A DNA stretch of 64,000 bases. Source: a virus. The notes under the pieces were generated by a model. That model made no database searches and was not told where the DNA came from. It saw only the letters and a program-made list of their open reading frames with translations. The translations under genes and the position numbers were made by a program. The number at the start of each line of letters is the position of its first letter. The first letter of the stretch is position 1. Location of the stretch: positions 1 to 64,000 of the IMG/VR virus record IMGVR_UViG_3300045988_120048. One strand, given 5' to 3'. Below are positions 13,815 through 26,437 of the stretch, piece after piece.

Positions 13815-13838
13815 ATAGGAGATAAGAAGCACAGCAAA
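13815..13838 (+). promoter_or_regulatory. conserved intergenic motif, instance (GGAGATAAGAAGCACAGCAAAGAC)
   Basis: Same family; followed by a 280-nt structured noncoding region. Confidence 0.4.
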
Positions 13839-13929
13839 GACAGTTGGAAAGACAACAAAACAATAAATGCTAGAGTTATTAATATGACTCCTGCTTATCA
13901 GGCTGCTGCCTAATAAGCCGAGCAGCACT

Positions 13930-14040
13930 TGCTTAGGAACAGAAAGGTGCGCCATTGACAATTCTATAAGTTCTCTGTATACTTTAGGAACAGAGTGGTG
14001 GAAGTTGACAGTATATCAATCCTGTCAGCCCTAAAAGACA
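13930..14040 (+). repeat. imperfect tandem direct repeat (TTAGGAACAGA..GTG...TTGACA, two copies) in noncoding region
   Basis: TTAGGAACAGAAAGGTGCGCCATTGACAAT and TTAGGAACAGAGTGGTGGAAGTTGACAGT about 55 nt apart; preceded by hairpin GCTGC-15nt-GCAGC at 13895-13920. Confidence 0.4.
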
Positions 14041-14075
14041 AGGATAGTCTTTAAAACCTATGCTGTAAGAATGCT

Positions 14076-14112
14076 TTGATGCAAATATGTAAGACAGGGG
14101 TTCGACTCCCCT
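14076..14112 (+). pseudogene. tRNA 3' fragment (T-arm AGGGG-TTCGACT-CCCCT plus acceptor 3' strand) with no recognisable 5' half nearby
   Basis: ACAGGGGTTCGACTCCCCTCATCTCCA; upstream body does not fold as a tRNA. Confidence 0.35.
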
Positions 14113-14142
14113 CATCTCCACTTAAATGTTATATTTAGAAGA

Positions 14143-14170
14143 TTGTTATAGGAATGCACACAGCAAACTT
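14143..14170 (+). promoter_or_regulatory. conserved intergenic motif, instance h (TTATAGGAATGCACACAGCAAACTTAG)
   Basis: Family member. Confidence 0.4.
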
Positions 14171-14254
14171 AGACTATAATACAAGACTTTTAATCTTGAA
14201 CATTTCTAGTAGCATTCCGTTTTTGTTTTGAATCCATTTTTACTATATTGTTTG

Positions 14255-14282
14255 AATAAGAATACTAACAGCAATTTTATCA
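14255..14282 (+). promoter_or_regulatory. conserved intergenic motif, instance e (AATAAGAATACTAACAGCAATTTTATC)
   Basis: About 50 nt upstream of the HNH gene at 14331. Confidence 0.5.
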
Positions 14283-14330
14283 AGAATTAGTGGTTAATTT
14301 CTAAAATGTATTCTGTTTAATTTTTTTTTT

Positions 14331-14807
14331 ATGAATTGTATAAACTGTGGCAAAGAGTTAACTGGTAATTAGAAGAAATTTTGTTCTAGAAAGTGTAAAT
14401 ATGAATATTATAAGAAAGAGAATGAGGGAACTTCTTATAATTCAGCTTATAGTAAAAGAAAAGACGCTCATGGTGTTTATCTTAAATATAAGTTAATAAA
14501 GTATAAGGGAGGAAAATGTGAATGTTGTGGATATGATAAGAACATTGCGGCACTTCAATTTCATCATTTGGATCCCACTACTAAGAAATTTACATTGGAT
14601 TCTAGAACTATAGAGAGAAAAAGTGACGAAGAGATTCTATAGGAACTTAGTAAATGTAAGTTACTTTGTGCTAATTGCCATGCTGAATTGCACAATCCAG
14701 AGATGGCAAAGGAAAATTGTGTAAAGTTTAAAGAGGCTTCGAAAGGAATAAAACGTCGAAAACCTCATAACCTAGATATTTTGAATATCTCCTAGTGTTC
14801 CGAATGA
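14331..14807 (+). CDS. HNH homing endonuclease paralog with three in-frame TAGs (14370, 14637, 14793)
   Basis: MNCINCGKELTGN-TAG-KKFCSRKCKYEYY...GGKCECCGYDKNIAALQFHHLDP...CANCHAELH, closely similar to the 2470-3039 gene; ends at TGA 14805-14807 and overlaps the start of tRNA-Cys. Confidence 0.55.
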
Positions 14808-14860
14808 TTAGGTTCCGCTCTGCAAAAGCGTGTATGTGGGTTTGAGTCCCACCTAGGAGT
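14789..14860 (+). tRNA. tRNA-Cys (anticodon GCA)
   Basis: Acceptor CTCCTAG/CTAGGAG, anticodon stem CGCT/AGCG with loop CTGCAAA, T-arm GTGGG-TTTGAGT-CCCAC; D-arm imperfect. Confidence 0.55.
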
Positions 14861-14893
14861 CAAGGAGGGTTCGACTCCCTCACTGCCCTCTAC
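14861..14893 (+). pseudogene. tRNA 3' fragment (T-arm GAGGG-TTCGACT-CCCTC plus ACTGCCC) abutting tRNA-Cys
   Basis: CAAGGAGGGTTCGACTCCCTCACTGCCCTCT directly follows the tRNA-Cys discriminator. Confidence 0.35.
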
Positions 14894-14911
14894 TTATTAA
14901 GTAGAATTGTT

Positions 14912-15235
14912 ATGAAGAAAATATTATCTTTCGTTAAATTATCTGAACGTTGGTTTGTAGATATTCCTTGGGAAGGAGATGTGTCTGATCTGCAAATGGT
15001 AGCAGGTGCAGATTTACTTCTAGATTCCCTCTGTAATGGAAACACTAGAATCTCTATAGAAGTATCAACAGACCCTATAAAGGATTATATTCATCTCAAT
15101 AGAGTTTCTGAGGATGAATTTGGAGCTACTTATGGAGTAAATACTCCTAACTTTAGCGGGGAGATTTGGCTATGTCCAGTTACATTAGCAGTTTTTCCTA
15201 ATTATCCAAAGGACTTGTATATGAAGGTGTTATAA
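14912..15235 (+). CDS. hypothetical protein
   Basis: ORF track, 107 aa. Confidence 0.4.
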   Translation: MKKILSFVKLSERWFVDIPWEGDVSDLQMVAGADLLLDSLCNGNTRISIEVSTDPIKDYIHLNRVSEDEFGATYGVNTPNFSGEIWLCPVTLAVFPNYPKDLYMKVL

Positions 15236-15239
15236 GAAT

Positions 15240-15313
15240 GGTCCATTTAGTGTAACGGTTAGCACGCAATGCTGTGAACATTGAAGAATGGGTTCGACTC
15301 CCAGGTGTGACCC
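15240..15313 (+). tRNA. tRNA-His-like (anticodon GUG, extra 5' G); acceptor 3' strand pairs poorly
   Basis: G(-1)+GTCCATT, D-arm GTGT..GCAC, anticodon stem CAATG/CATTG with loop CTGTGAA, T-arm TGGG-TTCGACT-CCCA; the 3' acceptor strand is not complementary as I read it. Confidence 0.45.
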
Positions 15314-15340
15314 AAATAGATTATTAATTAAATATTTAAT

Positions 15341-15574
15341 ATGGAAAGAAACTTTAAAGATGAAGCTCTTAAGACCGTAAATGGTTTCAAAGAGGTAAAG
15401 AGTGTAGTATGTATTGTAAGCGATGGTGAATACTCCTCAGCTTGCATTGGTTCAGAAGGACGAGCAAATCTGCAGAATATGATTGTTAATGCAATGCTTC
15501 AGAATGATGCTGTACTAGCTCTATTTAAGGCAGCAGTTATAGCTGCTGAGGTATTCAAAGGTGAAGAGAATTAA
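15341..15574 (+). CDS. hypothetical protein
   Basis: ORF track, 77 aa. Confidence 0.4.
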   Translation: MERNFKDEALKTVNGFKEVKSVVCIVSDGEYSSACIGSEGRANLQNMIVNAMLQNDAVLALFKAAVIAAEVFKGEEN

Positions 15575-15581
15575 TTCTCTA

Positions 15582-15668
15582 GGAGAGTTGACTGAGCGGT
15601 TTAAAGTGGCGCCCTGCTAAGGCGCTGATCGAGTAATCGGTCCAGAGGTTCGAATCCTCTACTCTCCG
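15582..15668 (+). tRNA. tRNA-Ser (anticodon GCU), type II
   Basis: Acceptor GGAGAGT/ACTCTCC, anticodon stem GCGCC/GGCGC with loop CTGCTAA, long variable arm, T-arm CAGAGG-TTCGAAT-CCTCTA. Confidence 0.75.
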
Positions 15669-15670
15669 CT

Positions 15671-15955
15671 ATGAATGATAAAATTAATAAATTTAAGGAG
15701 GAACATAGAGAGTTTCTGGATTGCTTAATGGATGATACTTGGTTATGTGAAGAACCAATTCCATTAAAAGAAACTAAGGCTTGCTGGTATTGGGCTATAC
15801 AAATAGGTATAGAAACTGTGCCAGAAGATAAATTTGAAGATACATTTGGTATTACTTTTCAGGAATTAACTGATTGGTGGAACCAGGACATATTAAAAGT
15901 AGGACAGGAAGAAGCAACACACGAAACAAGTACGCGCGTTAAGGTGAATGAGTAA
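15671..15955 (+). CDS. hypothetical protein
   Basis: ORF track, 94 aa. Confidence 0.4.
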   Translation: MNDKINKFKEEHREFLDCLMDDTWLCEEPIPLKETKACWYWAIQIGIETVPEDKFEDTFGITFQELTDWWNQDILKVGQEEATHETSTRVKVNE

Positions 15956-16006
15956 GGCATATAGAGTAATCTATAGGACACGATGCTTTTCTTAGTTCTA
16001 TTATTT

Positions 16007-16095
16007 GGAGGGTTGGCAGAGCTGGCTTAATGCACCGGTCCTGAAAACCGGAGAACGTGACAAGCGTTCCGTGAGTTCGAATCTCACACCCTCCT
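16007..16095 (+). tRNA. tRNA-Ser (anticodon UGA), type II; position 33 is C
   Basis: Acceptor GGAGGGT/ACCCTCC, anticodon stem CCGGT/ACCGG with loop CCTGAAA, variable-arm hairpin GAACG-TGACAA-GCGTTC, T-arm GTGAG-TTCGAAT-CTCAC. Confidence 0.65.
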
Positions 16096-16183
16096 CTAAA
16101 GCTGGCACTAGTAATAGTGTCAGCTATTTTTGTATATAACGCCGAAAGGCATATTTAATAACTTTTTAAATTTTTTACACAAA

Positions 16184-17164
16184 ATGATCAAATCAATTTT
16201 GTACACTTCAAACCCTAATTTCGTTCCAACAACTTTGGAGCAGGTGTCTAACTTCGCAGAAGAGAATGGTAAGTTTATGACTTGCTTTGCAAAGGAAGGT
16301 ACTGAACTCTACTCAGTAGAGGAAGGTGCTCACATTCTTAGCAGCAAGGGCAATCACATCTATGTCCTTGAGACAGGTGGTGACTACAGCTACGCTAAGA
16401 AGAGCAACATCATCGGTGTTGTACAGGTAGATTATCCATTTGGCGCAAAGAAGCCTCTTGTAAACACTTCTACAGAGGGTGTTACCAAGAACACTATTGC
16501 AGGTTTCTCTGATCGCTTGAAGGAGACATTCATGCCTACAGAGGCTAAGGATGTTCGTGTCTCTATGGATGGTAACATCTGTGTTGCAACCAATCAGGGT
16601 TATGTAGCAATTGACGCTCAGAATCACCTGACTGCTTATCCAGAGGAACTCACTCTTCCACTGCCTGTGTTCATCATGAGCAAGCCTAAGGAGAACCTCG
16701 TAGTAGGTGATATCATTGCTCTTGATCGTAGCTATGCTAAGGTTACCTCTATCAAGGGTGAGAAGATCAACGCTATCAGCTATACAGGTGCTGGTAAGCT
16801 GATCCGCACCATCAAGGACTTCATGTTCAACCAGACTATGGTCCGCGTAGTGGTATCTCTTACTGGTAACATGGGAGGCCAGATGAATCCTATGATGCTT
16901 ATGGCACTTGCTAAGGATGGAAATAAGGATGACTCATTGGCTTCATTGTTCCCTCTCATGATGATGAATCAGCAGGGAGGTGCTGTGGCTGGTAATCCTA
17001 TGATGTTTGCATTGCTTGCTGGTAAGGATGGTTTGTCTACTAAGGATATGCTTATGATGAGCATGATGGGAGGCAACAGTCCTTTCGGTAACATGTTTGG
17101 CGCTGCTCAGGCTCCCGCTCAGGCTGCTCCTGAGAAGGAAACAGAGGAAGACATCGAGGACTAA
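16184..17164 (+). CDS. hypothetical protein with a Met/Gly/Ala-rich low-complexity C-terminal region ending in an acidic tail (EKETEEDIED)
   Basis: Track ORF 16130-17164; probable start ATG 16184 (MIKSILYTS). Confidence 0.5.
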   Translation: MIKSILYTSNPNFVPTTLEQVSNFAEENGKFMTCFAKEGTELYSVEEGAHILSSKGNHIYVLETGGDYSYAKKSNIIGVVQVDYPFGAKKPLVNTSTEGVTKNTIAGFSDRLKETFMPTEAKDVRVSMDGNICVATNQGYVAIDAQNHLTAYPEELTLPLPVFIMSKPKENLVVGDIIALDRSYAKVTSIKGEKINAISYTGAGKLIRTIKDFMFNQTMVRVVVSLTGNMGGQMNPMMLMALAKDGNKDDSLASLFPLMMMNQQGGAVAGNPMMFALLAGKDGLSTKDMLMMSMMGGNSPFGNMFGAAQAPAQAAPEKETEEDIED

Positions 17165-17225
17165 TCCACCCTCATAACCTTAAGAGGCTCTGAATAATAG
17201 TAGGAGCCTCTATTTTTTTTCTTTA

Positions 17226-17987
17226 ATGAAAGATTTTCAATTTTTAGATTACCACACGGAATATTCATGTAAAGGTGCCTTTAAGAAGGATATGGATGTA
17301 GAAGCATGCTTCTCATTCGTATTTAGACACACCGACGAGGAAAATGTAAGTGAAGAATATGAAGTTATCCTTTATAAGGGAACTGATTTTTCTAGAGAAA
17401 AGCATAATTCAAATTCGTGTCTCTTTACAAAGAAACAGATAAGGAACCATCTCAGACAAGCTCAAGGTATTTATCCATTCGATTTCTACATTACAGAAGT
17501 CACCAACTGGGGAGATGGTTATAATGTATTTAAGGTTCGCTTAAAACTCACTAACGTTCCTGGTACGTTTCATAAGTATCTTTTAACTTGGCTGAGATAT
17601 ATGTATGAGTACCCTTATAATGTTATCTTATATGATGCTTATAAGTTAAAAAAGGACCCATGCTTTAGGTTCACCTCTATGTCTGACTTGTTTAATCTTG
17701 TGCTAGGCTGTTTTAACGAAAATCCTAGAGATATTCATCAAATAGCTAGGAACCAAGTTAGCAAGACTATGTTAAAGAGAGACATTAGAGAGAAACTTCA
17801 GAATATCAAAATGTTAAATAACGTTTATGATAAGTTGAAGAATAAAGGCAATAACAACCAAATTCCAAATGAAGATGGAGATCTTACCACCTCTGATTTT
17901 GAATTTTGGGAAAGCGACGACATCTTCGAAAGACGAAGAAAGCCAGTTTACATGAATGTTTATAAAGAAGTAATAAAGAAGAAATGA
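17226..17987 (+). CDS. hypothetical protein
   Basis: ORF track, 253 aa. Confidence 0.45.
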   Translation: MKDFQFLDYHTEYSCKGAFKKDMDVEACFSFVFRHTDEENVSEEYEVILYKGTDFSREKHNSNSCLFTKKQIRNHLRQAQGIYPFDFYITEVTNWGDGYNVFKVRLKLTNVPGTFHKYLLTWLRYMYEYPYNVILYDAYKLKKDPCFRFTSMSDLFNLVLGCFNENPRDIHQIARNQVSKTMLKRDIREKLQNIKMLNNVYDKLKNKGNNNQIPNEDGDLTTSDFEFWESDDIFERRRKPVYMNVYKEVIKKK

Positions 17988-18613
17988 AGATTTATGTTGT
18001 AGGTGGAGCTGATAACTACGTCAACTTCATTGAAAATGTGCAGCTTGTTGATAAACTTGAAGATGCACAATTAGTAGTATTCACCGGCGGAGAAGATGTC
18101 ACACCTTCTCTTTATGGATGTAAGAAGCATAGAACTACTTATTCCAACCTTAGAAGAGATCAGGCAGAACAGGCTATCTTCAATAAGATAGACCCAAAGA
18201 AACAGGTTTGTCTTGGAATTTGCCGTGGATCTCAATTTCTATGTGTGATGAATGGTGGCAAGCTTGTCCAAAATGTGACGAGTCATGCTACTGGATTTAC
18301 CCATGGGATAACTGATGGCGACAAGATTTATCAAATAACTTCTACCCACCATCAGATGCAGTATCCATTTAATCTTAATGGGGAAGATTATGATATCCTG
18401 TTTGCATCTTATGGAGTAGAGAGTGACTATTATGAAGGGGAAGGAATAGACCCTAACGTTGTTCTTGGAAGAGAACCAGAAATTGTTTTATATCATAAGA
18501 AGGGATTGCCTAAGTGTCTCGCAGTACAAGGTCATCCTGAGATGATTCCTGATTCTCCTGTTGCTGAAATGATTAATAACCTTGTAAAAGATCTCGTAAA
18601 TGAAATTGCGTAA
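17984..18613 (+). CDS. class-I glutamine amidotransferase-like / gamma-glutamyl hydrolase (peptidase C26 family)
   Basis: GICRGSQF (nucleophile Cys), HH pair and AVQGHPE motifs characteristic of GATase1/C26. Confidence 0.65.
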   Translation: MKIYVVGGADNYVNFIENVQLVDKLEDAQLVVFTGGEDVTPSLYGCKKHRTTYSNLRRDQAEQAIFNKIDPKKQVCLGICRGSQFLCVMNGGKLVQNVTSHATGFTHGITDGDKIYQITSTHHQMQYPFNLNGEDYDILFASYGVESDYYEGEGIDPNVVLGREPEIVLYHKKGLPKCLAVQGHPEMIPDSPVAEMINNLVKDLVNEIA

Positions 18614-19067
18614 TGTAACTATTGGTGCAGACCCAGAACTGTTTATTATTAATGAGAAGACAAAGAAGGTAGTGTCTGCCGTTGGATTAATCCCTGGTGA
18701 AAAAGGCAATCCATGGAGATCTGATGATATGCCAGAGGGCTTTGGACTTGAGACTGATAATATTCTTGCAGAATTTAATATTCCTCCTGTTAAGGATGGA
18801 ATAAACTTTGTTAACAACATCGTTTATATGCAGGAGTATATAGATAAGTTTGTTAAGAGTAAAAATCCTGACCTTGGCATCAAATGTATAGCCTCCCAGA
18901 CCGTACCTACATCTGAATTGCAGAGCGATCAAGCTAAGCTTTTCGGATGTGATGTTGATTATAACGCCTATACAATGAAGGCAAACCCTAAGCCTAAGGG
19001 TACATCAACTAATCTTCGCTCTGCTGGTCGAATAAGTGAGGGCCAGAAGTATAGAAATATACAGTAG
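18600..19067 (+). CDS. amidoligase (COOH-NH2 ligase, glutamine-synthetase-like fold) 5' exon
   Basis: ADPELF N-terminus typical of phage Amidoligase_2 proteins. The ORF is broken by TAG and a LAGLIDADG gene; the C-terminal continuation (FHIHVGYENP...) resumes at 20192. Confidence 0.5.
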   Translation: MKLRNVTIGADPELFIINEKTKKVVSAVGLIPGEKGNPWRSDDMPEGFGLETDNILAEFNIPPVKDGINFVNNIVYMQEYIDKFVKSKNPDLGIKCIASQTVPTSELQSDQAKLFGCDVDYNAYTMKANPKPKGTSTNLRSAGRISEGQKYRNIQ

Positions 19068-20191
19068 AATTGCGTAAAAACGGTGAATGATAAATTCCTA
19101 TAAATAATTTTGAATTGCTGGAATAATTTTGTATTTTTGGTTAAATTAAGTTTAACTATAAAAATATCGAATTATGACAGAATTTCAACAAATTGTAATT
19201 AATCTAGTTAATGAAGGCAAAACTGTTTCCGAAATTGCAAAACAATTAAATAAAAATATGTCTTCAGTATCTTCAGTTGTTAAAAGATTTAATTTAACTC
19301 CTAAAAAAGCTTATGAAAATACTATCAAAGATGACTTTTTTGATGTAATAGACACAGAAGAAAAAGCCTATCTTTTAGGATTTTTTATAGCTGATGGATG
19401 TATAAATAAATCTACAAGTAGGTGTAAAGGTAGATTTTCAATTAATCAATCTGAAGATGATAAAGAAATTGTAAAAGCTTTTAAGGAGTATTTACAAGTA
19501 CCTTCAAAAATTCAATTAATAAATAATCAATCAGGTGTAAAACATAGAAAAACACAATGGAGAATTAGATGGACATCAGTTCATATGATGGAAACTATGG
19601 AAACTATTTATAATATACACCCACATAAAACTACAGATATTGAATTTGAATTTCCTATAAAATTAATTCCTGAAAATTTACAAGGACATTTTGTTCGAGG
19701 TTTTATTGATGGAGATGGTTATATGGGAAATAATGGAGAAATAAATAATTTTTCAGTAAGTATAGTAGGTGTAAGTGAAAAATTTCTTACTATGATTGGA
19801 GATTTAATTTCTAATACTACTGGAATGACTTACAATTTATATAAATCAAAAGGAAAAACTGTTGATTATATAAGTTTAAGATGGTTCTCTGAAGGTAAAA
19901 ATAAACTAGAAAAAATTACAAAATTAAAAGATTATTTATATAAAGATGCTACTATATATCTTTTTAGAAAGAAAAAAGAAATAGATGCATATATTAAATA
20001 CCGTGCTAATGTATTGAATAATATCAATACACAGTGTAACGCGTAGGAGATGAACCTGGAAACAGAATATAATTCTCCCAAGAGTGCGCAACCCTTAACA
20101 GATAATGCTGAAGGTGAAAATGTACGCTGAACTACTACGAAGGAATATAAGTAGTAGAATTAGAGGATAAAAAGCCTCTAAGATAACAAAA
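19068..20191 (+). mobile_element. intervening sequence (probable group I intron) carrying a LAGLIDADG homing endonuclease gene, splitting the amidoligase gene
   Basis: Host ORF broken at 19067 and resumed at 20192; HE ORF embedded; AT content markedly higher than flanks. Core intron elements not clearly recognised by eye. Confidence 0.5.
19174..20046 (+). CDS. LAGLIDADG homing endonuclease (double-motif)
   Basis: Motifs YLLGFFIADGCI and FVRGFIDGDGYM; N-terminal HTH-like segment; very AT-rich codon usage. Confidence 0.75.
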   Translation: MTEFQQIVINLVNEGKTVSEIAKQLNKNMSSVSSVVKRFNLTPKKAYENTIKDDFFDVIDTEEKAYLLGFFIADGCINKSTSRCKGRFSINQSEDDKEIVKAFKEYLQVPSKIQLINNQSGVKHRKTQWRIRWTSVHMMETMETIYNIHPHKTTDIEFEFPIKLIPENLQGHFVRGFIDGDGYMGNNGEINNFSVSIVGVSEKFLTMIGDLISNTTGMTYNLYKSKGKTVDYISLRWFSEGKNKLEKITKLKDYLYKDATIYLFRKKKEIDAYIKYRANVLNNINTQCNA

Positions 20192-20557
20192 TTGTTTCAC
20201 ATTCATGTGGGATATGAAAATCCTGACGTAGATACTAGTCTTGCTCTTGTAAAGTATATGGATGCCTTTTTAGGTATTCCTTCCGTCGTTAAGGATAAAG
20301 ATAAGAAACGTCGCTCTCTTTATGGTAAAGCCGGCTGCTTCCGTTTAACTGACTACGGTGTTGAGTACCGAGTTCTTAGTAGTGCAATGATGGGTTCCCC
20401 TTCTAAGTTGTCCTTCATCTGGAAGCAATTGCAGAAGGCTTTGAAAGCTTATCAGACCAACTATAGTCTTCCAAGTAGAGATTTAGTTCAGGAAGCCATT
20501 AATAACAGTAATGTTGAACTAGCTGAACAGTTAATAACTCATTATAATTTAGCATAA
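20192..20557 (+). CDS. amidoligase 3' exon
   Basis: Begins FHIHVGYENP (Amidoligase_2 catalytic His motif region). TTG in the track is probably not a real start; this is exon 2. Confidence 0.5.
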   Translation: MFHIHVGYENPDVDTSLALVKYMDAFLGIPSVVKDKDKKRRSLYGKAGCFRLTDYGVEYRVLSSAMMGSPSKLSFIWKQLQKALKAYQTNYSLPSRDLVQEAINNSNVELAEQLITHYNLA

Positions 20558-20559
20558 TT

Positions 20560-21906
20560 ATGTGTGGAATATTTGGTATCGTTACAAAGAGCATGAGGTC
20601 TTTTGACTTTCCAACTTTCTGTACATTAGGTATTGCTAATGACAGTAGAGGTGGTGACTCTTGTGGCTATTTTATTGATGGACACTACGAGTATGGAGCA
20701 AAAGGCGATGATAAGTGGTTCCAGTGTTTTTTCCAAGACAATAAGTTCCTTAATGAGCTTAAAATGAGTTCGGTAGCTTTTGGTCATTGTAGAAAAGCGT
20801 CTGTTGGTATCATCGACGAAACAACTGCTCAGCCAGTGGTACTTACTAATGCCAATGGAAAGGTAGAATATGTTCTAATGCATAATGGAACTATCTATAA
20901 TTACAAGGAGTTAGCTAAAAAATACATACCAGATATTGATATTACTGGTATGACTGACTCTCAGGTAATGGCTAGAATTTTCTATCGTTCTGGATACAAG
21001 GCACTCAGTGAGTATAACGGTGGAGCAGTGTTTGCAATTGCAGACTACCGTGGTGGAAAACCAAAGATTTTACTCTTTAAAGGAGCCTCCAAGAAAGACA
21101 AGTGGGATAAGAAGGAAACGGATGAACGTCCATTGTACTTCTGTGTCGATCCTATAAAGGGAGAGTTAATTTTCTCTTCTATTGCTTCTTATTTAATGTC
21201 TCTTAGACATAAGCTCACAACTTGGATTTTAAATCCAAATTGCCTCTTTGAGTTTAATGGTAAGGACTTAATTGCCGTTGAGGAAGTTTCTAGAGCCAAT
21301 GCTTGTCAAAGGAAGGAAACCGTATATGTAACTCCATCTAAATATGGTGGAAAATATTGGGGAGAATTTGGGCTGGAAGAAAGCAATGGTAATCTTTACG
21401 ACGATTTTATTTCGACTAACCAAGTAGATAATACTTATCATGGAAGGGGCAAAAAGCTCCAAGGACGAGTAATACTTAGTAAGTATGGAATGATGATGGA
21501 TGAAGCTCCTAAGAAGTCAACATATAAGGAGATATTCTTCTGGGATGGAGTTGCTCTTAAGAATGTTGCGTGCTTTCGATTTCTTACAGTCCTTAAGAAG
21601 GACAGCAAGCTCGAAGATAAAGAGTTTAATAAGAAGTTTAAGAACCTTATAAGGTATTTGAGCGTTGATGGTGTATATCATGAGAAGGATGTATGGTATC
21701 GAGCTACCTCTCCAACTAAGAGAGTTCCTTTTACAGGAACATTAAACATGATTACATCAACTTCTTCTACAGAATTTTTTGCTGGAAGCAGAAGAACTAC
21801 TAAATATGGTAGGACTTCTGATGAGGCATTTAGTTCTCTAGAGGAAGCTAAATTGGATGTTAATTTTAAAACAATTAAGGAAGAATGCAAGTCTTTGATG
21901 AAATAA
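20560..21906 (+). CDS. class-II (Ntn) glutamine amidotransferase domain protein
   Basis: N-terminal MCGIFGIV with catalytic Cys2, as in the Gn_AT_II family. Confidence 0.65.
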   Translation: MCGIFGIVTKSMRSFDFPTFCTLGIANDSRGGDSCGYFIDGHYEYGAKGDDKWFQCFFQDNKFLNELKMSSVAFGHCRKASVGIIDETTAQPVVLTNANGKVEYVLMHNGTIYNYKELAKKYIPDIDITGMTDSQVMARIFYRSGYKALSEYNGGAVFAIADYRGGKPKILLFKGASKKDKWDKKETDERPLYFCVDPIKGELIFSSIASYLMSLRHKLTTWILNPNCLFEFNGKDLIAVEEVSRANACQRKETVYVTPSKYGGKYWGEFGLEESNGNLYDDFISTNQVDNTYHGRGKKLQGRVILSKYGMMMDEAPKKSTYKEIFFWDGVALKNVACFRFLTVLKKDSKLEDKEFNKKFKNLIRYLSVDGVYHEKDVWYRATSPTKRVPFTGTLNMITSTSSTEFFAGSRRTTKYGRTSDEAFSSLEEAKLDVNFKTIKEECKSLMK

Positions 21907-22784
21907 CTAAAAGATGGGTGAGCTCTCGAAATTGTGCGAGGATTATCATCCAACAACTCCCAGAGCAAGTTATCTTCGGATATACTAGTAAGCCTGATAA
22001 GGTTGTTAGAGTTCTTATAGCTAGCTCTAGTGGGCATAGTAATTACTTTGAAACGGATTTAAATCTATATAAGGGGAAACTCTTGTATAGTAAGAGAAAT
22101 GGAGTATACTTTTCTCCTATCCATCACAACGAAGATTTTATACTTACAGAGCAGCTCATAAAGGGTTTCGGAGATTTTCCTTATATTCTTACTAGAAGGT
22201 ATGAAGCTGTAGAGAATTTCGATGCTTTCAATGGAAAGCAAGAAATCAAAGACCATGAAACTTTGTATCCCTTATCAAAATATTTAAAGTACACTTTTGG
22301 ACTGGAGTTCGAAACATCTCAAGGATATGTGCCTGAGGACGTATGTTATCGAGATGGATTAATCCCATTAAGGGATGGATCCATTACCGGACCAGAGTAC
22401 TCTACCGTTATACTGAAGGGAGGAGAGGGACTTTCTCTTCTTCATCAGCAGATAGAGACACTCAAAGAGTATACTAACTTTAATAAGGAATGCTCTCTAC
22501 ATGTTCATCTAGGAGGTTATCCTCTTAAGCCTGATACTATCTACAATCTTTATCTTGTATGTAAATCTATTGAACCTGAGCTGGAAAATATGCTTCCTGC
22601 TTTGACTTTCAATAGTGCTAGATATAAGGATAATGGTAAAGACTATTGTAAAAAGCTTGCTTTGTACGGTAGTTTTGAGGATATGTATTCACATCTAGTG
22701 GGAAGACAATTCTTCGGAAGCTTTACCCAAGCTCATCCTGATGATAAAGAACGAAAAAGAAAGTGGAATATACCAACTCGTTAG
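21885..22784 (+). CDS. amidoligase paralog, 5' exon
   Basis: FGLEFETSQG...SLHVHLGGY motifs of Amidoligase_2; ORF terminates at TAG-TAA immediately before intron-like sequence. Confidence 0.6.
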   Translation: MQVFDEITKRWVSSRNCARIIIQQLPEQVIFGYTSKPDKVVRVLIASSSGHSNYFETDLNLYKGKLLYSKRNGVYFSPIHHNEDFILTEQLIKGFGDFPYILTRRYEAVENFDAFNGKQEIKDHETLYPLSKYLKYTFGLEFETSQGYVPEDVCYRDGLIPLRDGSITGPEYSTVILKGGEGLSLLHQQIETLKEYTNFNKECSLHVHLGGYPLKPDTIYNLYLVCKSIEPELENMLPALTFNSARYKDNGKDYCKKLALYGSFEDMYSHLVGRQFFGSFTQAHPDDKERKRKWNIPTR

Positions 22785-23085
22785 TAAAATGGCGAGGCTA
22801 ACTGGAGACAGTTAGAAAAATAAATTGGGTGAATTTAGGGAAACCTAAATAAAATCATTATATTTGTAGTATATCAATTTATGCTACAAAGTAAGTGATT
22901 TTACAAGGCAATCCTAAGCCAAGCTATAGCTTAACAACTATAGAAGGTTCAGAGACTAACAGTTGAAACTCCTTTTAAGGAGAATATAATACTGACACGA
23001 GCGCCCGACATCCTTATGGGATGAAGATATAGTCCGATACCTAGAGGAAACTTTAGGATGCAAGATAAAGAACTTGCTATAACAT
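22785..23085 (+). mobile_element. group I intron (ORF-less) in amidoligase paralog
   Basis: Contains GGTTCAGAGACTAACAG (R element) and GAAGATATAGTCCGA (S element) in correct order; flanked by the two halves of one amidoligase reading frame. Confidence 0.7.
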
Positions 23086-23424
23086 TTGTATTATTGGTGT
23101 AATTTCATTAATGCTCTTTGTTATCAGGTAAATAAAACTATCGAGTTTAGATTTCTTCGTCCAACCTATAGCTTTAAGAAGATCCTCCTATGGCTTTATA
23201 TATTCAACGGCATTTTAAGATATGCTGAGGAGTACTATGTGCCGGGATGTCACACTAATCTAACTGTGATTATGCAGAAGTGTTATCCTTCGGACTTGGC
23301 AAAAGAACTTTGCCTTGGTATAAAGAAGCTTTGGGCACTTAGTGTAAATCAGCGTGGAAACGGTGATCCTATCGGAGCTGACGTTTGGATGGAGGAAGAA
23401 TTGTTTAACAGCTTAAAGATTTAA
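23086..23424 (+). CDS. amidoligase paralog, 3' exon
   Basis: Track ORF (TTG start artefact); continues the amidoligase after the intron. Confidence 0.5.
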   Translation: MYYWCNFINALCYQVNKTIEFRFLRPTYSFKKILLWLYIFNGILRYAEEYYVPGCHTNLTVIMQKCYPSDLAKELCLGIKKLWALSVNQRGNGDPIGADVWMEEELFNSLKI

Positions 23425-23430
23425 CAAAGT

Positions 23431-24012
23431 ATGGCAAAACAGGTATTAGAAATTGAAGTTCCAGATGGTAAAAAAGCCATTTGGAAGGATGGTCGTGTTG
23501 TCTTCGAAGATGTAGATACTATGGAAAGTATCAAAACTATCGAGGACGCTGCTCAATTTCTCGCAGACAAGAGGATCTGTGAGGATATTCTGGACTCATT
23601 ATCTAGACTTCCTAAGGACTCATTTGAGTGGAAGATAGCTGCTTATAGGGCAGTGGTTGCAGCTGTAACCTATAATGAACAGAGGCATCTTACCACTGGA
23701 GAACGTTGGTTTCCTACTATTGAGTTCTGTCGACCTGGAAAGCTTAAGAATTGTTGCGGTGACATCGTTGTAGGACGAATCAAATCAGAAGGAGAAGAGT
23801 TCGATGTCGTGGGCGGTCACGCTTATAACGGCGCGAGTGCGGGTCTCGGTTCCTTCTACTCGTCTTACGGCGTGTCTTACGCCTGGACGTATATCGGCTT
23901 CCGGTCGGTTGGTTCAAAGAAAGCCGCTCTATACATTTCTAAGCAATTTGGAAAGCTTCTGTTTGAGGTTAGTTATGGTGGTACGAACTGTGATTGGAGA
24001 TGGATGGCATAG
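23431..24012 (+). CDS. hypothetical protein (contains a local GC-rich patch 23800-23900)
   Basis: ORF track, 193 aa. Confidence 0.45.
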   Translation: MAKQVLEIEVPDGKKAIWKDGRVVFEDVDTMESIKTIEDAAQFLADKRICEDILDSLSRLPKDSFEWKIAAYRAVVAAVTYNEQRHLTTGERWFPTIEFCRPGKLKNCCGDIVVGRIKSEGEEFDVVGGHAYNGASAGLGSFYSSYGVSYAWTYIGFRSVGSKKAALYISKQFGKLLFEVSYGGTNCDWRWMA

Positions 24013-24088
24013 TCATAATCTGTATATCAGTAGTAGCACTATTCATTGTAGACACAATTTGTGACACTATTAAGGATTGTAAGAAAAA

Positions 24089-24610
24089 ATGATGGAGTGG
24101 TATTACATTCTGGGAATCATCTCTTATGGTATTTTCATTGTCCAATTCCTTCTCTCCAACTTCTTTGGTTGGGGAGATTTGGATTTAGACATTGATTTTG
24201 ATGGTGAACCAGACTTTGGACTTGGAGATGTTCTCTCCTTCAAAGGATTAGTTCATTTTGCAATGGGCTTCTCCGGATGGCTTATGCTGGCGGGAAAGGT
24301 TACCCTTACCACCTTAGCAATAGCTTCTGTAATTGGTTTTGCATTTATTGTGATTTTATACTATGCCTATAGGCTATGTTTAAAGTTCAATAGTGAACCC
24401 CAAATCAAAAGTGGAGAAAGTTTAGTTGGAAAGGAAGTAGCAATTTCTGTCCAGATTTCAGAAATGGAATACTCTGGAAACTGTATAACAGACTCTGGAT
24501 ACATTCCATTGGATAGGTGCAGACTTTCAAAGCCAGCAAACCACACAATAAAGTGTGGAGACATTCTTCACATTGACTCGTATAAGTCAGGAATTTATTT
24601 TATTTCTTAA
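24089..24610 (+). CDS. NfeD-like membrane protein (N-terminal TM helices plus C-terminal beta-rich OB-like domain)
   Basis: Hydrophobic N-terminal half; immediately upstream of and co-oriented with an SPFH/flotillin gene, the classical NfeD-flotillin pairing. Confidence 0.45.
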   Translation: MMEWYYILGIISYGIFIVQFLLSNFFGWGDLDLDIDFDGEPDFGLGDVLSFKGLVHFAMGFSGWLMLAGKVTLTTLAIASVIGFAFIVILYYAYRLCLKFNSEPQIKSGESLVGKEVAISVQISEMEYSGNCITDSGYIPLDRCRLSKPANHTIKCGDILHIDSYKSGIYFIS

Positions 24611-24628
24611 TTAATAAAAATTTTATAA

Positions 24629-26437
24629 ATGTTAACAGAAAGTTTAGTTATTGCAGGCGCAATAGTTGTGCTTGTAATCTTGACCCTCATCGGTCTTATG
24701 TCACGTTATCGTCGTTGTGCAAGTGATGAAATCTTGGTAGTCTTTGGTAAGACTGGCAAGAAAGTTGGAATTAATCCAGCAACTGGCAAGAAGGAAACAA
24801 CAATTCTTCCTTCTAAGATCATCCATGGCGGAGGTACCTTTGTATTCCCTGTAATTCAGGATTGGAAGAAGATGTCTCTGAAACCAATTCAGATTCAGAC
24901 AGAGGTAGAAGGTGTGTCAAGTCAGATGATTAAGGTCAAGATTCCGGTTACCTTGACTACTGGAATTGGTACAACTGATGTACTCATGCAAAATGCTGCA
25001 AGTCGTTTCCTGACTGCTAAACCTGATGAGATTTCTGCTCAAATTACTGATATTCTTATTGGTGAAATGCGTGCTTTGATGGCTACTATGACCATTGAAG
25101 AGATCAATGCTGACCGAATCAAGTTCCTTGGTAATGCTAAGGAGGATATTGAGACTGAATTGAACAAGGTAGGTTTCAGTATTATTAACATTAACAATGC
25201 TGATATTACTGATGATGCTGACTATATTAAGAATCTTGGTAAGAAGGCAGCTACCAAGGCAAAGGCTCAGGCTGAAGCAGACATCGCTGAGGAGGAAAAG
25301 AAGGGTGACATTCAGATTGCTGAAACCAATAAGGAGAAAGCAATTGCTGTAGCTGCTGCAGAGAAGGATCAAGCTACTCAGGTGGCTCAGACTAAGCAGG
25401 AGCAGGAAGTAAAGGTTGCCGAGATCGAGAAGAACAAGGCAATTAGTCTTGCAGAGGCTGATAAGACTAAGGAGTCTGAGGTTGCTAATCAGCAGGCTGA
25501 TAAGGAAGCTGCTACCGCTGCTGCACAGGCTCGTTCAGCTGCTGCTGTAGCAAAGTCTGAAGCAGATGCTCTTGCTGCACAGGCAGAGGCAGAGGCTGAG
25601 AAGAATATTCGTATGGCTAAGGCTGAACAGCAGCAGGAAGCTGAAACCAGAAAGGCTATTAATGAGCAGGAAGCTAAGGTAGCTGAGTATGATGCTGAAA
25701 AGCGTAAGCGTACAGCTGAAGCTAATAAGCAGGCAGGCGTAGCTGAGCAGACAGCAACTATTGAGGTTTCTAAGGCACAAGCTGAGGCTGCTAAGGCACA
25801 GGCTGAAGCAGTCCGTGTTGAGGGTGTATCTAAGGCTGAAGCTGAAGTAGCAATTGCTAAGAAGAATGCTGAAGCTAAGGAGGCACAGTTGAACGCTGAG
25901 TCTATTGTTCCTGCTCAGAAGAAGAAGGAAGCTGTAGTTATTGAGGCTGAGGCTGAGAAGCAGAAGAAGATTGTTGAGGCACAGGCTGAGGCTGAAGCAA
26001 TTAAGCAGAAAGCTTTAGCTGAGGCTCAGGCAATCCAGGCTAAGGCAGAAGCTGAGGCAGAGGGTAACAAGAAGAAACTCCTTGCTGAGGCAGAGGGTAA
26101 GCGTGCCTCTTTGATGGCTGAGGCTGATAAGGTTCAGGCTATTGAGATGGCTCCAGCACTTGCAATTGAGAAGATGATTGAGACAGGTATGACTCCGGAG
26201 ATGATTGTTCAGTATAAGACTGTCGATCAGCTTAAGGGTATTGCCGAAGCTCAGGCTGAGGTTTATGAGCATATCCATCTTGGTGAGGTTACTGTTTATG
26301 GTAACGAGAACACTGCTGGTAACTTCATGGCTTCAATGGCTGAGAATCTCAATCCAGCATTTGAACTTCTCAAGTCTATTCCTTTCAAGAAGACTCTCAA
26401 TGCTATAGCAGGCAAGGAAGAGGTCAAGAATGATTAA
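24629..26437 (+). CDS. flotillin-like SPFH/band-7 protein with long Ala/Glu/Lys-rich coiled coil
   Basis: N-terminal TM segment, SPFH-like region, then about 300 aa of EA/AEA/KAQAEA repeats (flotillin architecture). Confidence 0.7.
   Translation: MLTESLVIAGAIVVLVILTLIGLMSRYRRCASDEILVVFGKTGKKVGINPATGKKETTILPSKIIHGGGTFVFPVIQDWKKMSLKPIQIQTEVEGVSSQMIKVKIPVTLTTGIGTTDVLMQNAASRFLTAKPDEISAQITDILIGEMRALMATMTIEEINADRIKFLGNAKEDIETELNKVGFSIININNADITDDADYIKNLGKKAATKAKAQAEADIAEEEKKGDIQIAETNKEKAIAVAAAEKDQATQVAQTKQEQEVKVAEIEKNKAISLAEADKTKESEVANQQADKEAATAAAQARSAAAVAKSEADALAAQAEAEAEKNIRMAKAEQQQEAETRKAINEQEAKVAEYDAEKRKRTAEANKQAGVAEQTATIEVSKAQAEAAKAQAEAVRVEGVSKAEAEVAIAKKNAEAKEAQLNAESIVPAQKKKEAVVIEAEAEKQKKIVEAQAEAEAIKQKALAEAQAIQAKAEAEAEGNKKKLLAEAEGKRASLMAEADKVQAIEMAPALAIEKMIETGMTPEMIVQYKTVDQLKGIAEAQAEVYEHIHLGEVTVYGNENTAGNFMASMAENLNPAFELLKSIPFKKTLNAIAGKEEVKND

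What the first reader, a model, noticed from the sequence alone, without database searches (positions are those of the whole stretch)
16184..23424. Amidoligase / class-II amidotransferase / gamma-glutamyl-hydrolase module with both amidoligase genes intron-interrupted
The window has consecutive + strand genes for a GATase1/C26 gamma-glutamyl hydrolase-like enzyme (17984-18613), an Amidoligase_2-type COOH-NH2 ligase (18600-20557), a class-II Ntn amidotransferase with N-terminal MCGI (20560-21906), and a second amidoligase paralog (21885-23424). This is the gene combination predicted in comparative genomics to synthesise or attach gamma-glutamyl-type peptide tags or novel metabolites in phages. 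Its actual product is unknown. Both amidoligase genes are split: the first by a LAGLIDADG-encoding insertion (19068-20191), the second by an ORF-less group I intron with R and S elements (22785-23085). Upstream, ORF 16184-17164 ends in a Met/Gly-rich low-complexity region and an acidic EKETEEDIED tail. I speculate it could be a substrate for C-terminal ligation.
Basis: partly seen in the sequence, partly recalled or inferred. Interest (0 to 1): 0.75.

Follow-up and report, generated by a model that had tools for sequence, protein, structure and literature searches.

The report
Intron-split phage amide-ligase gene cluster
A large uncultured gut-type phage carries a widespread but biochemically uncharacterised four-enzyme amide-bond operon, and both of its ligase genes are interrupted by mobile self-splicing group I introns that close relatives lack; this is a well-documented example of known kinds of element, not a new system.

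Summary
Window 17226-23424 is a tightly packed + strand operon: a crAss-specific protein (orfB), a C26/class-I GATase, a COOH-NH2 ligase, a class-II GATase and an Amidoligase_2 enzyme. Gene order matches crAss-like phage cr108_1.

Both ligase genes are interrupted.
- Intron 1 is 19029-20194 and carries a LAGLIDADG endonuclease gene.
- Intron 2 is 22782-23088, has no ORF and scores 88 bits against Rfam RF00028.
- Relatives about 98% identical lack both introns, exactly at these boundaries.
- The spliced products align without gaps to uninterrupted homologues.
- dN/dS is 0.03-0.18.
- Rfam misses intron 1, but four diverged copies give 16 compensatory base pairs, including P1, P10 and a P3 helix that spans the ORF.

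- The first ligase is PF14395, not PF12224.
- The two ligases are not detectable paralogues.
- Intron boundaries shift by 3-39 nt.
- No ATP-grasp or GGCT gene is nearby.

The idea that OrfA is a ligation substrate is unsupported, because the module occurs widely without OrfA.

The module has been known since 2009 from phiEco32-, LUZ24- and crAss-like phages, and its product is still unknown. This lineage resembles the intron-rich, TAG-recoding crAss-like phages already described. I rate it a new member of known kinds, of moderate interest.

The parts
16184..17164 (+). OrfA: a lineage-specific 326-aa protein with a Met/Gly-rich C-terminal region and an acidic ...EEDIED tip. It lies upstream in the same orientation. 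Whether it belongs to the module is unproven.
   Evidence: One search gives the ORF. It has no Pfam, PHROG or NCBIfam hit. It has 342 unnamed homologues, seen only on contigs of this phage lineage. Searches cover tail conservation. A terminator-like hairpin at 16100-16125 precedes it, and there is none between it and ligase 2.
17226..17987 (+). OrfB: a 253-aa module-associated protein of unknown function. Its stop codon overlaps the start of the GATase1 gene.
17984..18613 (+). Class-I glutamine amidotransferase / Peptidase_C26-like enzyme (gamma-glutamyl hydrolase type), 209 aa.
   Evidence: Pfam PF07722 at 4e-16 and PF00117 at 2e-6. phrog_7218 at 1.7e-35. Weak best NCBIfam hits are gamma-glutamyl-CDP-amidate hydrolase and PuuD. 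The GICRG nucleophile elbow and GHPE are present. It is 43% identical to the cr108_1 'putative amidotransferase'. dN/dS is 0.06-0.10.
18600..19028 (+). Ligase 1 (COOH-NH2 ligase type 2, PF14395), exon 1, codons 1-143. It ends ...NLRSAG.
   Evidence: Junction 19028|20195 equals L003 10429|10430. The spliced 263-aa product aligns without gaps, 49% identical, to the uninterrupted 267-aa cr108_1 ligase.
19029..20194 (+). Intron 1: a 1166-nt group I intron. The 5' splice site follows U19028 and the intron ends in G20194.
   Evidence: It is absent, precisely at these boundaries, from L003-L007. The same intron sits at the same codon in L016-L019. With the ORF removed, the alignment gives 53 pairs, 98.6% of cells paired and 16 pairs with compensatory changes; 0 of 500 shuffles and the slid controls (0-1 such pairs) do not reach this. 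P1 and P10 co-vary with the exon sequences. Rfam does not detect it.
19174..20046 (+). Intron-encoded double-motif LAGLIDADG homing endonuclease with an N-terminal HTH, 290 aa. It is in a different frame from exon 1.
   Evidence: Pfam LAGLIDADG_3 at 9e-12 and HTH_23. phrog_4645 at 2e-45. About 30% identical to proteins annotated as intron-encoded endonucleases in Staphylococcus phages. The motifs LLGFFIADG and FVRGFIDGDG are visible.
20195..20557 (+). Ligase 1, exon 2, codons 144-263. It begins FHIHVGY.
   Evidence: Pfam PF14395 spans residues 142-210 of the spliced protein.
20560..21906 (+). Class-II (Ntn) glutamine amidotransferase, 448 aa, with N-terminal Cys2 and a ~160-aa C-terminal domain of unknown fold.
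21885..22781 (+). Ligase 2 (Amidoligase_2, PF12224), exon 1, codons 1-299. It ends ...KWNIPTR.
22782..23088 (+). Intron 2: a 307-nt ORF-less group I intron. The 5' splice site follows U22781 and the intron ends in G23088.
   Evidence: Rfam RF00028 at 88.3 bits, E 3e-21, full model, 22773-23057. It is absent from L003, L004, L006 and L007. It is present at the same codon in L005 (471 nt, with an 80-aa ORF) and L009 (846 nt, with a 158-aa HNH-like ORF). P1 is compensated in L009.
23089..23424 (+). Ligase 2, exon 2, codons 300-410. It begins YYWCNFIN and contains the TIEFR motif.
   Evidence: There is a gapless alignment across the junction with the 486-aa cr108_1 homologue, 47% identical. Pfam PF12224 covers residues 176-335 only after splicing.

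Best explanation
Window 17226-23424 is the crAss-like-phage version of the phage 'COOH-NH2 ligase / amidoligase / glutamine amidotransferase' operon, first described for phiEco32 and common in LUZ24-like phages.

Shown:
- Five genes are translationally coupled: orfB, a C26/class-I GATase, a PF14395 ligase, a class-II GATase and a PF12224 ligase.
- Each ligase gene carries a mobile group I intron inserted in a highly conserved motif: SAG|FHIHVG in ligase 1 and PTR|YYW.N in ligase 2.
- Removing 19029-20194 and 22782-23088 restores intact ligases of 263 and 410 aa.
- Intron 1 carries its own LAGLIDADG homing endonuclease. Intron 2 is an ORF-less derivative of an intron that carries an HNH-type ORF in a relative.
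- Both introns vary by presence or absence among near-identical phages.

Inferred:
- The introns self-splice from the pre-mRNA, so the operon is functional.
- The two glutamine-synthetase-like ligases use ATP to activate a carboxylate as an acyl-phosphate and form amide bonds.
- The class-II GATase supplies glutamine-derived ammonia, or alternatively cleaves a gamma-glutamyl amide as EgtC does.
- The C26 enzyme removes a gamma-glutamyl group, the role that a GGCT/AIG2 enzyme appears to fill in other phages.
- The product would therefore be a small amide or gamma-glutamyl-derived metabolite, or an amidated host component, made through a gamma-glutamyl intermediate. The acceptor is unknown.
For: Module identity:
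- cr108_1 has the same gene order at 43-49% identity.
- The ligase-1 family is found in 318 phage records.
- Canonical modules in KBNP1711 and PaP3 are shown.
- The literature lists the same set of genes with no assigned function.

Introns:
- Intron-less alleles give exact boundaries.
- Alignments across both junctions are gapless.
- Rfam scores intron 2 at 88 bits.
- Intron 1 has 16 compensatory pairs, including a long-range P3 that spans the ORF, and P1/P10 that follow the exon sequences.
- The ribozyme parts of intron 1 are 81-87% identical to the copies in L016 and L017, while the flanking exons are only 61-65% identical. This indicates horizontal spread.

Functionality:
- dN/dS is 0.03-0.18 for all four enzyme genes against intron-less alleles, with no internal stop codons.
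- Catalytic residues are kept.

Chemistry:
- The GAT2 N-domain matches class-II GATases and EgtC.
- The best weak hits for GAT1 are gamma-glutamyl hydrolases.
- GGCT is present and C26 undetected in phi14:2, L011 and L012. C26 is present and GGCT undetected in the window, cr108_1 and L003-L010.
Against: - No transcript or biochemical data exist, so splicing is inferred from sequence alone.
- Rfam does not recognise intron 1.
- The PF12224 match of ligase 2 is marginal (24.3 bits against 22). The PF14395 match covers only profile positions 94-162; the full-length support for ligase 1 comes from PHROGs.
- The C26-versus-GGCT exchange is not strict, because L013 has both.
- ATP-grasp and GGCT, present in most other versions of the module, were not found in this window. 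The pathway here may therefore differ, or be completed by genes elsewhere in the ~170-kb genome.
- The folds of orfB and of the GAT2 C-domain gave no functional clue.
- Nothing identifies the substrate.
Confidence: 0.6

Rival explanations
1. The genes form two glutamine-dependent amidation pairs. Each glutaminase (GAT1 with ligase 1, GAT2 with ligase 2) channels ammonia to its overlapping ligase partner, and the ligases convert carboxylates to carboxamides on a host envelope component such as peptidoglycan stem-peptide Glu or DAP, as MurT/GatD does. The purpose would be to block superinfection or alter lysis.
For: The gene pairs overlap: GAT1/ligase 1 by 14 nt and GAT2/ligase 2 by 22 nt. Both glutaminases keep their catalytic residues. 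According to PMC10580990, Iyer et al. 2009 proposed cell-wall modification preventing superinfection for phiEco32. MurT/GatD is a precedent for a ligase plus a class-I GATase (listed; the mechanism is from general knowledge).
Against: The best family for GAT1 is C26 gamma-glutamyl hydrolases, not ammonia-channelling GATases. In PaP3 and phiEco32-like phages, the protein next to ligase 1 is not recognisably a GATase. Neither ligase resembles Mur ligases. There is no envelope-targeting signal.
Confidence: 0.15
2. This is a protein-tagging system. The ligases add Glu or gamma-glutamyl residues to the acidic C-terminus of OrfA (16184-17164), in the manner of RimK acting on ribosomal protein S6.
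For: OrfA lies directly upstream with no terminator in between. Its ...(D/E)(D/E)IED tip is kept in 111 of 113 full-length homologues that are at least 54% identical.
Against: OrfA occurs only in this lineage, while the module is widespread without it. L009 keeps the ligases but has no OrfA or orfB. The tip becomes ...KE in L008 and a basic ...EEEKK in L010. The RimK-like ATP-grasp enzyme of other modules is missing here. An acidic tip after a disordered linker is also typical of protein-interaction tails.
Confidence: 0.05
3. The module decorates phage DNA or nucleotides, attaching an amino acid or amide to a hypermodified base.
For: Lee et al. 2021 found genes with amidoligase and amidotransferase domains next to thymidine-hypermodification genes in viral contigs. 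In phi14:2 and cr108_1 the module sits among replication and nucleotide-metabolism genes, next to UDG.
Against: No 5-HMUDK, aGPT-Pplase, dUMP hydroxymethylase or TET/JBP domain turned up among the window ORFs scanned. Here the module lies between tRNA genes and an SPFH-domain (membrane-type) gene.
Confidence: 0.08
4. The interrupted ligase genes are dead, or are expressed as separate half-proteins. On this view the insertions are free-standing endonuclease cassettes or decayed elements, not splicing introns.
For: Exon 1 of each gene runs into a TAG shortly after the junction, and each exon 2 has an in-frame TTG nearby. Rfam does not recognise intron 1.
Against: P1 and P10 guide pairings track the exon sequences in four diverged copies. 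There are 16 compensatory pairs. Intron 2 is a full-length RF00028 match. The exons are under strong purifying selection with no lesions. The split points lie inside catalytic motifs, where half-proteins would be implausible.
Confidence: 0.03

Closest known systems
Operon of crAss-like phage cr108_1 (Steigviridae, MT774385, genes QOR59007-QOR59011)
   Same: It has the same gene order: two orfB-like paralogues, a 'putative amidotransferase' (class I/C26), a 'putative COOH-NH2 ligase', a class-II GATase and an Amidoligase_2 protein. Identities are 43-49%.
   Different: cr108_1 has uninterrupted genes, an ATP-grasp gene upstream and UDG downstream. It has two orfB paralogues instead of one and no OrfA.
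phiEco32 / LUZ24 / PaP3-type phage amidoligase module (Iyer et al. 2009; Pfam PF14395 'Phage phiEco32-like COOH.NH2 ligase-type 2')
   Same: A PF14395 ligase, a PF12224 amidoligase and a class-II GATase are clustered in the early/replication region, and the function is unknown.
   Different: Those modules add a RimK-like ATP-grasp enzyme and often a GGCT/AIG2 enzyme, neither of which was found here. The small protein next to their ligase 1 is not a recognisable GATase1. Gene order differs, and no introns are reported in these genes.
Mobile group I introns with homing endonucleases in phage genes (T4 td/nrdB/sunY, Staphylococcus Twort/K-like phages, and the intron-dense Zeta group of crAss-like phages, Yutin et al. 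2021)
   Same: The splice sites have U.G at the 5' end and a terminal G at the 3' end. A P1/P10 internal guide and a P3-P9 core are present. The LAGLIDADG ORF is looped out. Insertion is in conserved catalytic motifs, and presence varies among close relatives.
   Different: The host genes, an amidoligase-module ligase pair, are not among those listed for crAss-like phages (MCP, PolB, primase, TerL, RNAP). The Rfam model misses intron 1 and its relatives.
PuuA/PuuD (gamma-glutamyl-polyamine synthetase plus C26 hydrolase) and EgtC-type Ntn amidohydrolases
   Different: All matches are far below the family cut-offs. This is an analogy for the mechanism, not family membership.

Membership tests
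Group I intron (intron 2, 22782-23088) | Match to the RF00028 covariance model above the gathering score | tested here: met
   88.3 bits against a cut-off of 50, full model 1-253, E 3e-21.
Group I intron (intron 2, 22782-23088) | U at the 5' splice site paired to G in P1, a terminal G, and removal that restores the reading frame | tested here: met
   U22781 and G23088 are present. P1 is CUCGU/GCGAG, with a compensated copy in L009 (CACGU/GCGUG). The alignment across the junction is gapless.
Group I intron (intron 1, 19029-20194) | Match to the RF00028 covariance model | tested here: not met
   No hit even at E<=10, and none in the homologous copies L016-L019. The 870-nt ORF inside the fold is the likely reason, since L009's ORF-bearing intron 2 is also missed.
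Group I intron (intron 1, 19029-20194) | An internal guide sequence that forms P1 with the 5' exon (U.G at the splice site) and P10 with the 3' exon, plus a terminal G | tested here: met
   P1 is CUGGU/GCCAG in the window, CGGGU/GCCCG in L016 and L018, and UGGGU/GCCCA in L017. P10 is GUGAGG/UUUCAC in the window and UGUGAA/UUCAUA in L017. G20194 is the last intron base.
Group I intron (intron 1, 19029-20194) | A conserved core of paired helices (P2, P3, P8, P9 and others) supported by covariation, with the ORF in a peripheral loop | tested here: met
   There are 53 pairs with 98.6% of cells paired and 16 pairs changed on both sides; 0 of 500 shuffles reach this, and slid controls give 0-1. The P3 helix (alignment columns 51-57 with 206-212) spans the ORF site. 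P4-P6 and P7 were assigned only by eye.
Group I intron (both introns) | Guanosine-dependent self-splicing | not testable with these tools
   This needs in vitro transcription and splicing, or RNA from infected cells.
PF14395 COOH-NH2_lig (phiEco32-like type 2) | Score above the Pfam gathering threshold, with full-length similarity to family members | tested here: met
   42.4 bits against 25, although only profile positions 94-162 are matched. phrog_3815 matches residues 2-260 of 263 at 3e-66. The protein is 49% identical end to end to the cr108_1 ligase.
PF12224 Amidoligase_2 | Score above the Pfam gathering threshold | tested here: met
   The spliced protein scores 24.3 bits against 22, over residues 176-335. 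Exon 1 alone fails at 20.4 bits. phrog_2443 'amidoligase enzyme' matches at 3e-13. The margin is small.
Peptidase_C26 / class-I GATase | Pfam threshold met and the Cys-His-Glu triad present | tested here: met
   PF07722 scores 59.9 bits against 20.5. GICRG and GHPE are in the sequence. Whether the enzyme acts as a gamma-glutamyl hydrolase or as an ammonia donor cannot be told from sequence.
Class-II (Ntn) glutamine amidotransferase | N-terminal catalytic Cys, an Asn-Gly oxyanion hole, Asp for the glutamine amino group, and the Ntn fold | tested here: met
phiEco32/LUZ24-type amidoligase module | RimK-like ATP-grasp ligase and GGCT/AIG2 cyclotransferase present alongside the ligases and the class-II GATase | tested here: not met
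   tblastn with ATP-grasp and GGCT proteins from cr108_1, phi14:2, PaP3 and KBNP1711 finds nothing in the window (no hit below E 0.4) and no hit at E<=0.01 in L003 or L008-L010. Both are found in L011-L013. Genes elsewhere in the ~170-kb genome cannot be excluded.
Peptide-tagging system with a dedicated acceptor (OrfA) | Acceptor co-occurs with the ligases across lineages and keeps an invariant acceptor terminus | tested here: not met
   The module is widespread without OrfA. The terminus differs in L008 and L010, although ...IED is kept among closer homologues.

The most novel reading that the evidence does not exclude
OrfB plus the four enzymes, possibly with OrfA, form a crAss-lineage-specific conjugation or amidation system that modifies a defined macromolecular target: a phage or host protein terminus, a peptidoglycan precursor, or a nucleic-acid base. 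The repeated invasion of its catalytic-motif codons by homing-endonuclease introns reflects that the system is indispensable and highly conserved in these abundant gut phages. The insertion sites seen are GICRG|S in GAT1, C|D, G|FHIH and G|VEYR in ligase 1, and R|YYW in ligase 2.
Probability: 0.1. Interest if true: 0.7.

Novelty: new member of a known kind. Interest (0 to 1): 0.35.

Why it matters
The ligase/GATase module is found in hundreds of cultured phages (318 records for ligase 1 alone) and in abundant gut phages, yet no product has been assigned since its prediction in 2009.

This window adds three things:
- It defines a reduced crAss-type version of the module: no ATP-grasp or GGCT nearby, a C26 hydrolase instead, and a lineage-specific partner protein, orfB.
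- It gives exact exon junctions, so correct cDNAs can be synthesised for biochemistry.
- It shows that the module genes are favoured homing sites for group I introns, which marks their catalytic motifs as strongly conserved.

It is also a practical warning for annotation. Standard ORF calling splits both ligases into fragments that fall below, or only barely reach, domain thresholds. Rfam misses the ORF-bearing intron family altogether.

Tried and rejected
- Megablast of 16000-24100 against GenBank phages found no match.
- Rfam at a permissive E-value on 18900-20350 and on L016-L019 gave no group I hit for intron 1. I classified it by comparative analysis instead.
- A scan of IMG/VR with the LAGLIDADG protein and with an 18-nt core pattern of intron 1 found nothing. 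The metagenome scan did find copies.
- The paper of Iyer et al. 2009 (PMC3268129) is not held. Its proposal is cited second-hand from PMC10580990.
- Sequence searches of PDB found no homologue for ligase 1 and only one chance-level match (E 0.66) for ligase 2.
- phmmer found no link between OrfA and the two conserved hypothetical proteins that precede the module in cr108_1, PaP3 or KBNP1711. OrfB links only to the cr108_1 pair, with a faint hint to PaP3 ORF50 (E 0.005 in a 12-sequence database), which I did not accept.
- Pfam on the small protein next to ligase 1 in PaP3 and KBNP1711 gave no GATase hit.
- I looked for thymidine-hypermodification genes among about 40 window ORFs and found none.
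- The sigma-70 promoter scan was at background level and uninformative for a Bacteroidota-type phage.

Full report

Yes.

Pfam assigns the following:
- 17984-18613 is Peptidase_C26 (4e-16) and class-I GATase.
- 20560-21906 is class-II GATase (GATase_6 at 1e-14) and starts MCGI.
- 19174-20046 is a LAGLIDADG endonuclease with an N-terminal HTH.
- The 20192-20557 fragment is PF14395 COOH-NH2_lig.
- The 21885-22784 fragment matches PF12224 Amidoligase_2 weakly, below threshold.

Rfam finds a full-length group I intron at 22773-23057 (88.3 bits). It finds nothing in the first insertion, even at E<=10.

**2. Exact anatomy**

Reading the sequence, I predicted splice junctions at 19028|20195 and 22781|23089. 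In both cases there is a U before the 5' splice site and a G as the last intron base.

Two independent tests confirm these junctions:
- The spliced products (263 and 410 aa) align without gaps across both junctions to uninterrupted genes of crAss-like phage cr108_1. The alignments are TNLRSAG|FHIHVGY against TNLRTTGCHFHIGY, and KWNIPTR|YYWCNFIN against KWNIHARYVWANLIN, at 49% and 47% identity.
- IMG/VR holds close relatives on 128-176-kb contigs. L003 (98% nucleotide identity), L004, L006 and L007 lack both insertions, exactly at those boundaries.

Intron 1 is therefore 19029-20194 (1166 nt) and intron 2 is 22782-23088 (307 nt).

After splicing, ligase 1 matches phrog_3815 'COOH.NH2 ligase' end to end (3e-66) and PF14395 at 42.4 bits. 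Ligase 2 passes the PF12224 threshold (24.3 against 22), with the match spanning the junction.

The four enzyme genes show dN/dS of 0.03-0.18 against intron-less alleles and have no internal stops. They are not pseudogenes by sequence criteria.

**3. Is intron 1 really a group I intron?**

Rfam misses it, so I looked for other copies. A metagenome scan with the LAGLIDADG protein returned four loci, L016-L019, with endonucleases 67-70% identical.

In all four, the element sits at the same codon (143|144) of ligase-1 homologues that are only about 53% identical in protein. The ribozyme parts are 81-87% identical and the endonuclease gene is 74-78% identical. The flanking exons are only 61-65% identical. 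This is the pattern expected for horizontal homing.

I aligned the four distinct copies with the ORF removed. RNAalifold predicts 53 pairs, 16 of which have compensatory changes. On that structure:
- 98.6% of cells are paired.
- 0 of 500 column shuffles reach the observed covariation.
- Sliding the partner columns drops pairing to about 40%, with 0-1 compensated pairs.

The helices include P2, a long-range P3 that spans the ORF insertion site, P8, P9, a further 3' hairpin and a hairpin just after the ORF.

The internal guide behaves canonically. Its 3' half pairs with the end of exon 1 (P1) and its 5' half pairs with the start of exon 2 (P10). Both pairings change in step with the exon sequences in the diverged copies.

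The endonuclease belongs to a family annotated as intron-encoded in Staphylococcus phages. I regard intron 1 as a genuine group I intron whose ORF defeats the Rfam model. L009's ORF-bearing copy of intron 2 is missed in the same way.

**4. Intron dynamics in the module**

- Intron 2 is present at the same codon in L005 (471 nt, with an 80-aa ORF) and L009 (846 nt, with a 158-aa HNH-like ORF). The window's copy is the ORF-less form.
- L005 has a further insertion of about 1 kb in the GATase1 gene, immediately after the GICRG nucleophile motif.
- L018 and L019 carry a second endonuclease-bearing intron in ligase 1 at codon 116|117, with a paralogous core. L019 has a third near codon 199.
- Every insertion lies in a highly conserved motif, as is usual for homing sites.

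**5. What is the module?**

The nearest annotated relative is cr108_1 (Steigviridae). Its gene order is ATP-grasp, two hypothetical proteins, 'putative amidotransferase', 'putative COOH-NH2 ligase', glutamine amidotransferase, a hypothetical protein that is PF12224, and UDG.

The ligase-1 family occurs in 318 GenBank phage records, mostly LUZ24-like Pseudomonas phages and phiEco32-like coliphages. In those phages, PF14395, PF12224 and a class-II GATase cluster with a RimK-like ATP-grasp enzyme and often a GGCT.

Papers list these genes without a function. PMC10580990 summarises the 2009 proposal of Iyer et al. as cell-wall modification preventing superinfection, and states that the function remains to be explored. 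I found no experimental assignment.

The window's version lacks ATP-grasp and GGCT within 64 kb, and so do the 20-kb neighbourhoods of L003 and L008-L010.

The two ligases are not detectably similar to each other. They belong to different Pfam families of the same fold class. The fold assignment is from my knowledge of the Pfam descriptions and was not tested here.

**6. Accessory proteins**

*OrfB (17226-17987)*
- It overlaps the GATase1 start codon.
- It is homologous to both hypothetical proteins upstream of the cr108_1 module.
- A profile search finds 445 cluster representatives.
- Its model (pLDDT 75) matches only crAss-like proteins in BFVD and nothing informative in PDB.
- It is the real module-associated unknown.

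*OrfA (16184-17164)*
- It has 342 homologues, all unnamed and all from this lineage.
- The Met-rich repeats are conserved.
- The ...IED tip is kept among homologues at least 54% identical, but it changes to ...KE and to a basic tail in L008 and L010.
- The module occurs widely without OrfA, and L009 lacks both OrfA and OrfB.
- Nothing supports it as a ligation acceptor. A conserved acidic tip after a flexible linker is equally typical of a protein-interaction tail.

*GAT2*
- The model is confident (pLDDT 86.6).
- Its C-domain matches nothing.

*GAT1*
- Its best NCBIfam hits, far below cut-off, are gamma-glutamyl-CDP-amidate hydrolase and PuuD.

**7. Mechanism**

Shown: a functional-looking operon whose two ligase mRNAs require removal of group I introns.

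Inferred:
- The two ligases perform ATP-dependent carboxylate-amine ligation.
- The class-II GATase supplies nitrogen from glutamine.
- The C26 enzyme hydrolyses a gamma-glutamyl amide.
- In phi14:2, L011 and L012, a GGCT is present and C26 is undetected. The reverse holds here and in cr108_1. L013 has both. This loosely suggests that either enzyme can remove a gamma-glutamyl group, as in the PuuA/PuuD and butirosin-type logic (general knowledge).

The acceptor is unknown. Rivals are listed separately:
- Two ammonia-channelling amidation pairs acting on the envelope.
- Tagging of OrfA.
- DNA hypermodification. Amidoligase and amidotransferase genes do accompany thymidine-hypermodification clusters elsewhere, but no such genes are in this window.
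- Non-splicing insertions.

**8. Genome context and novelty**

The window is all + strand and 36% GC. Its features are:
- 17 to about 20 tRNA genes and a tmRNA.
- Three group I introns.
- An amber-suppressor tRNA followed by a gene with nine in-frame TAG codons.
- NrdD, NAMPT, DnaB-like and SPFH genes.
- Its DnaB is closest to sequences from human-faecal phage contigs, and then to crAss-like and Flavobacterium phages.

Contig sizes of 165-179 kb, intron density and TAG recoding all fit the description by Yutin et al. 2021 of large crAss-like phages (145-192 kb, up to 14 introns per genome, stop-codon reassignment). I could not test TerL or MCP membership.

Both halves of the finding are therefore instances of known kinds: a known but uncharacterised enzyme module, and known types of mobile intron in a lineage already noted for them. 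What is new is their combination, the exact junctions, the recognition of orfB, and the observation that the module genes are intron hotspots.

It is a new member of known kinds, and I score interest at about 0.35.

Noticed in passing
window 29140-29219 and ~29254-30528: ARAGORN finds a tRNA with anticodon CTA (an amber suppressor, labelled tRNA-Pyl). Directly downstream is an open frame (MADFNMSKLW...) with nine in-frame TAG codons and no TAA or TGA. The whole stretch 28960-31990 has no standard-code ORF of 70 aa or more. This looks like TAG recoding as described for crAss-like phages. All module genes end in TAA or TGA; the intron endonuclease gene and ORF 23431-24012 end in TAG.
   Followed up: partly
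window 47677-48645: This is a third group I intron (Rfam 50.1 bits at 48363-48645). A LAGLIDADG_2 ORF (47677-48537) precedes and overlaps it, just downstream of the DnaB-like helicase gene. ORFs 47315-47599 and 48694-49104 may be the two exons of the interrupted gene.
   Followed up: no
window 13793-14123; L006 5554-6433: The phage encodes a tmRNA. In relative L006, the tmRNA gene carries an 869-nt insertion at window position 14102|14103 that contains a group I intron (Rfam 87 bits).
   Followed up: partly
L005 8619-9624 (equivalent to window 18228|18233): A close relative has an insertion of about 1 kb in the GATase1 gene, immediately after the catalytic GICRG motif. It has a group-I-like 3' core (GATGAAGATATAGTC ... 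GATAACAAAATG) and no ORF of 60 aa or more. Rfam does not detect it.
   Followed up: partly
L018 259-1276; L019 259-1276 and 2694-3707: In more distant phages, the 263-codon ligase-1 gene carries two or three endonuclease-bearing introns, at codons 116|117, 143|144 and about 199. The intron at 116|117 has a core paralogous to intron 1.
   Followed up: partly
L009 13000-13845; L005 13020-13490: Intron 2 exists in three forms: with a 158-aa HNH-like ORF (L009), with an 80-aa ORF (L005), and without an ORF (the window). This looks like stages of endonuclease loss.
   Followed up: partly
L009 8000-10000: This relative has no OrfA or OrfB homologue upstream of the module. Its GATase1 matches in two pieces starting at residue 44, so the gene may be truncated or frameshifted. 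A group I intron (8716-8919) and a tRNA lie there instead.
   Followed up: no
window 1700-16100, 26538, 33676: There is a dense tRNA array: 17 genes by ARAGORN and about 20 by Rfam. It includes tRNA-Ser at 16007-16096, followed by a strong terminator-like hairpin at 16100-16125 just before OrfA. Relative L007 has an insertion of about 750 nt at window position ~16043, inside this tRNA region.
   Followed up: no
window 7001-7038: Rfam reports an 'abiF RNA' motif (RF03085) at 50.2 bits against a cut-off of 37, within the tRNA region.
   Followed up: no
window 24089-26437, 27946-28959, 35248-36801, 38136-39308: Several auxiliary genes lie nearby. These are an SPFH/Band-7 protein (602 aa, with a long Ala/Glu/Lys-rich coiled region) preceded by a small membrane protein, an OmpA-domain protein, a nicotinamide phosphoribosyltransferase, and a beta-ketoacyl synthase.
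   Followed up: no
homologue list of GAT2 (P0395, P0402-P0405, P0412, P0423, P0427): Several close GAT2 homologues are truncated to 65-85% of full length. This may mean the class-II GATase gene is also split by insertions in other members of the lineage.
   Followed up: no
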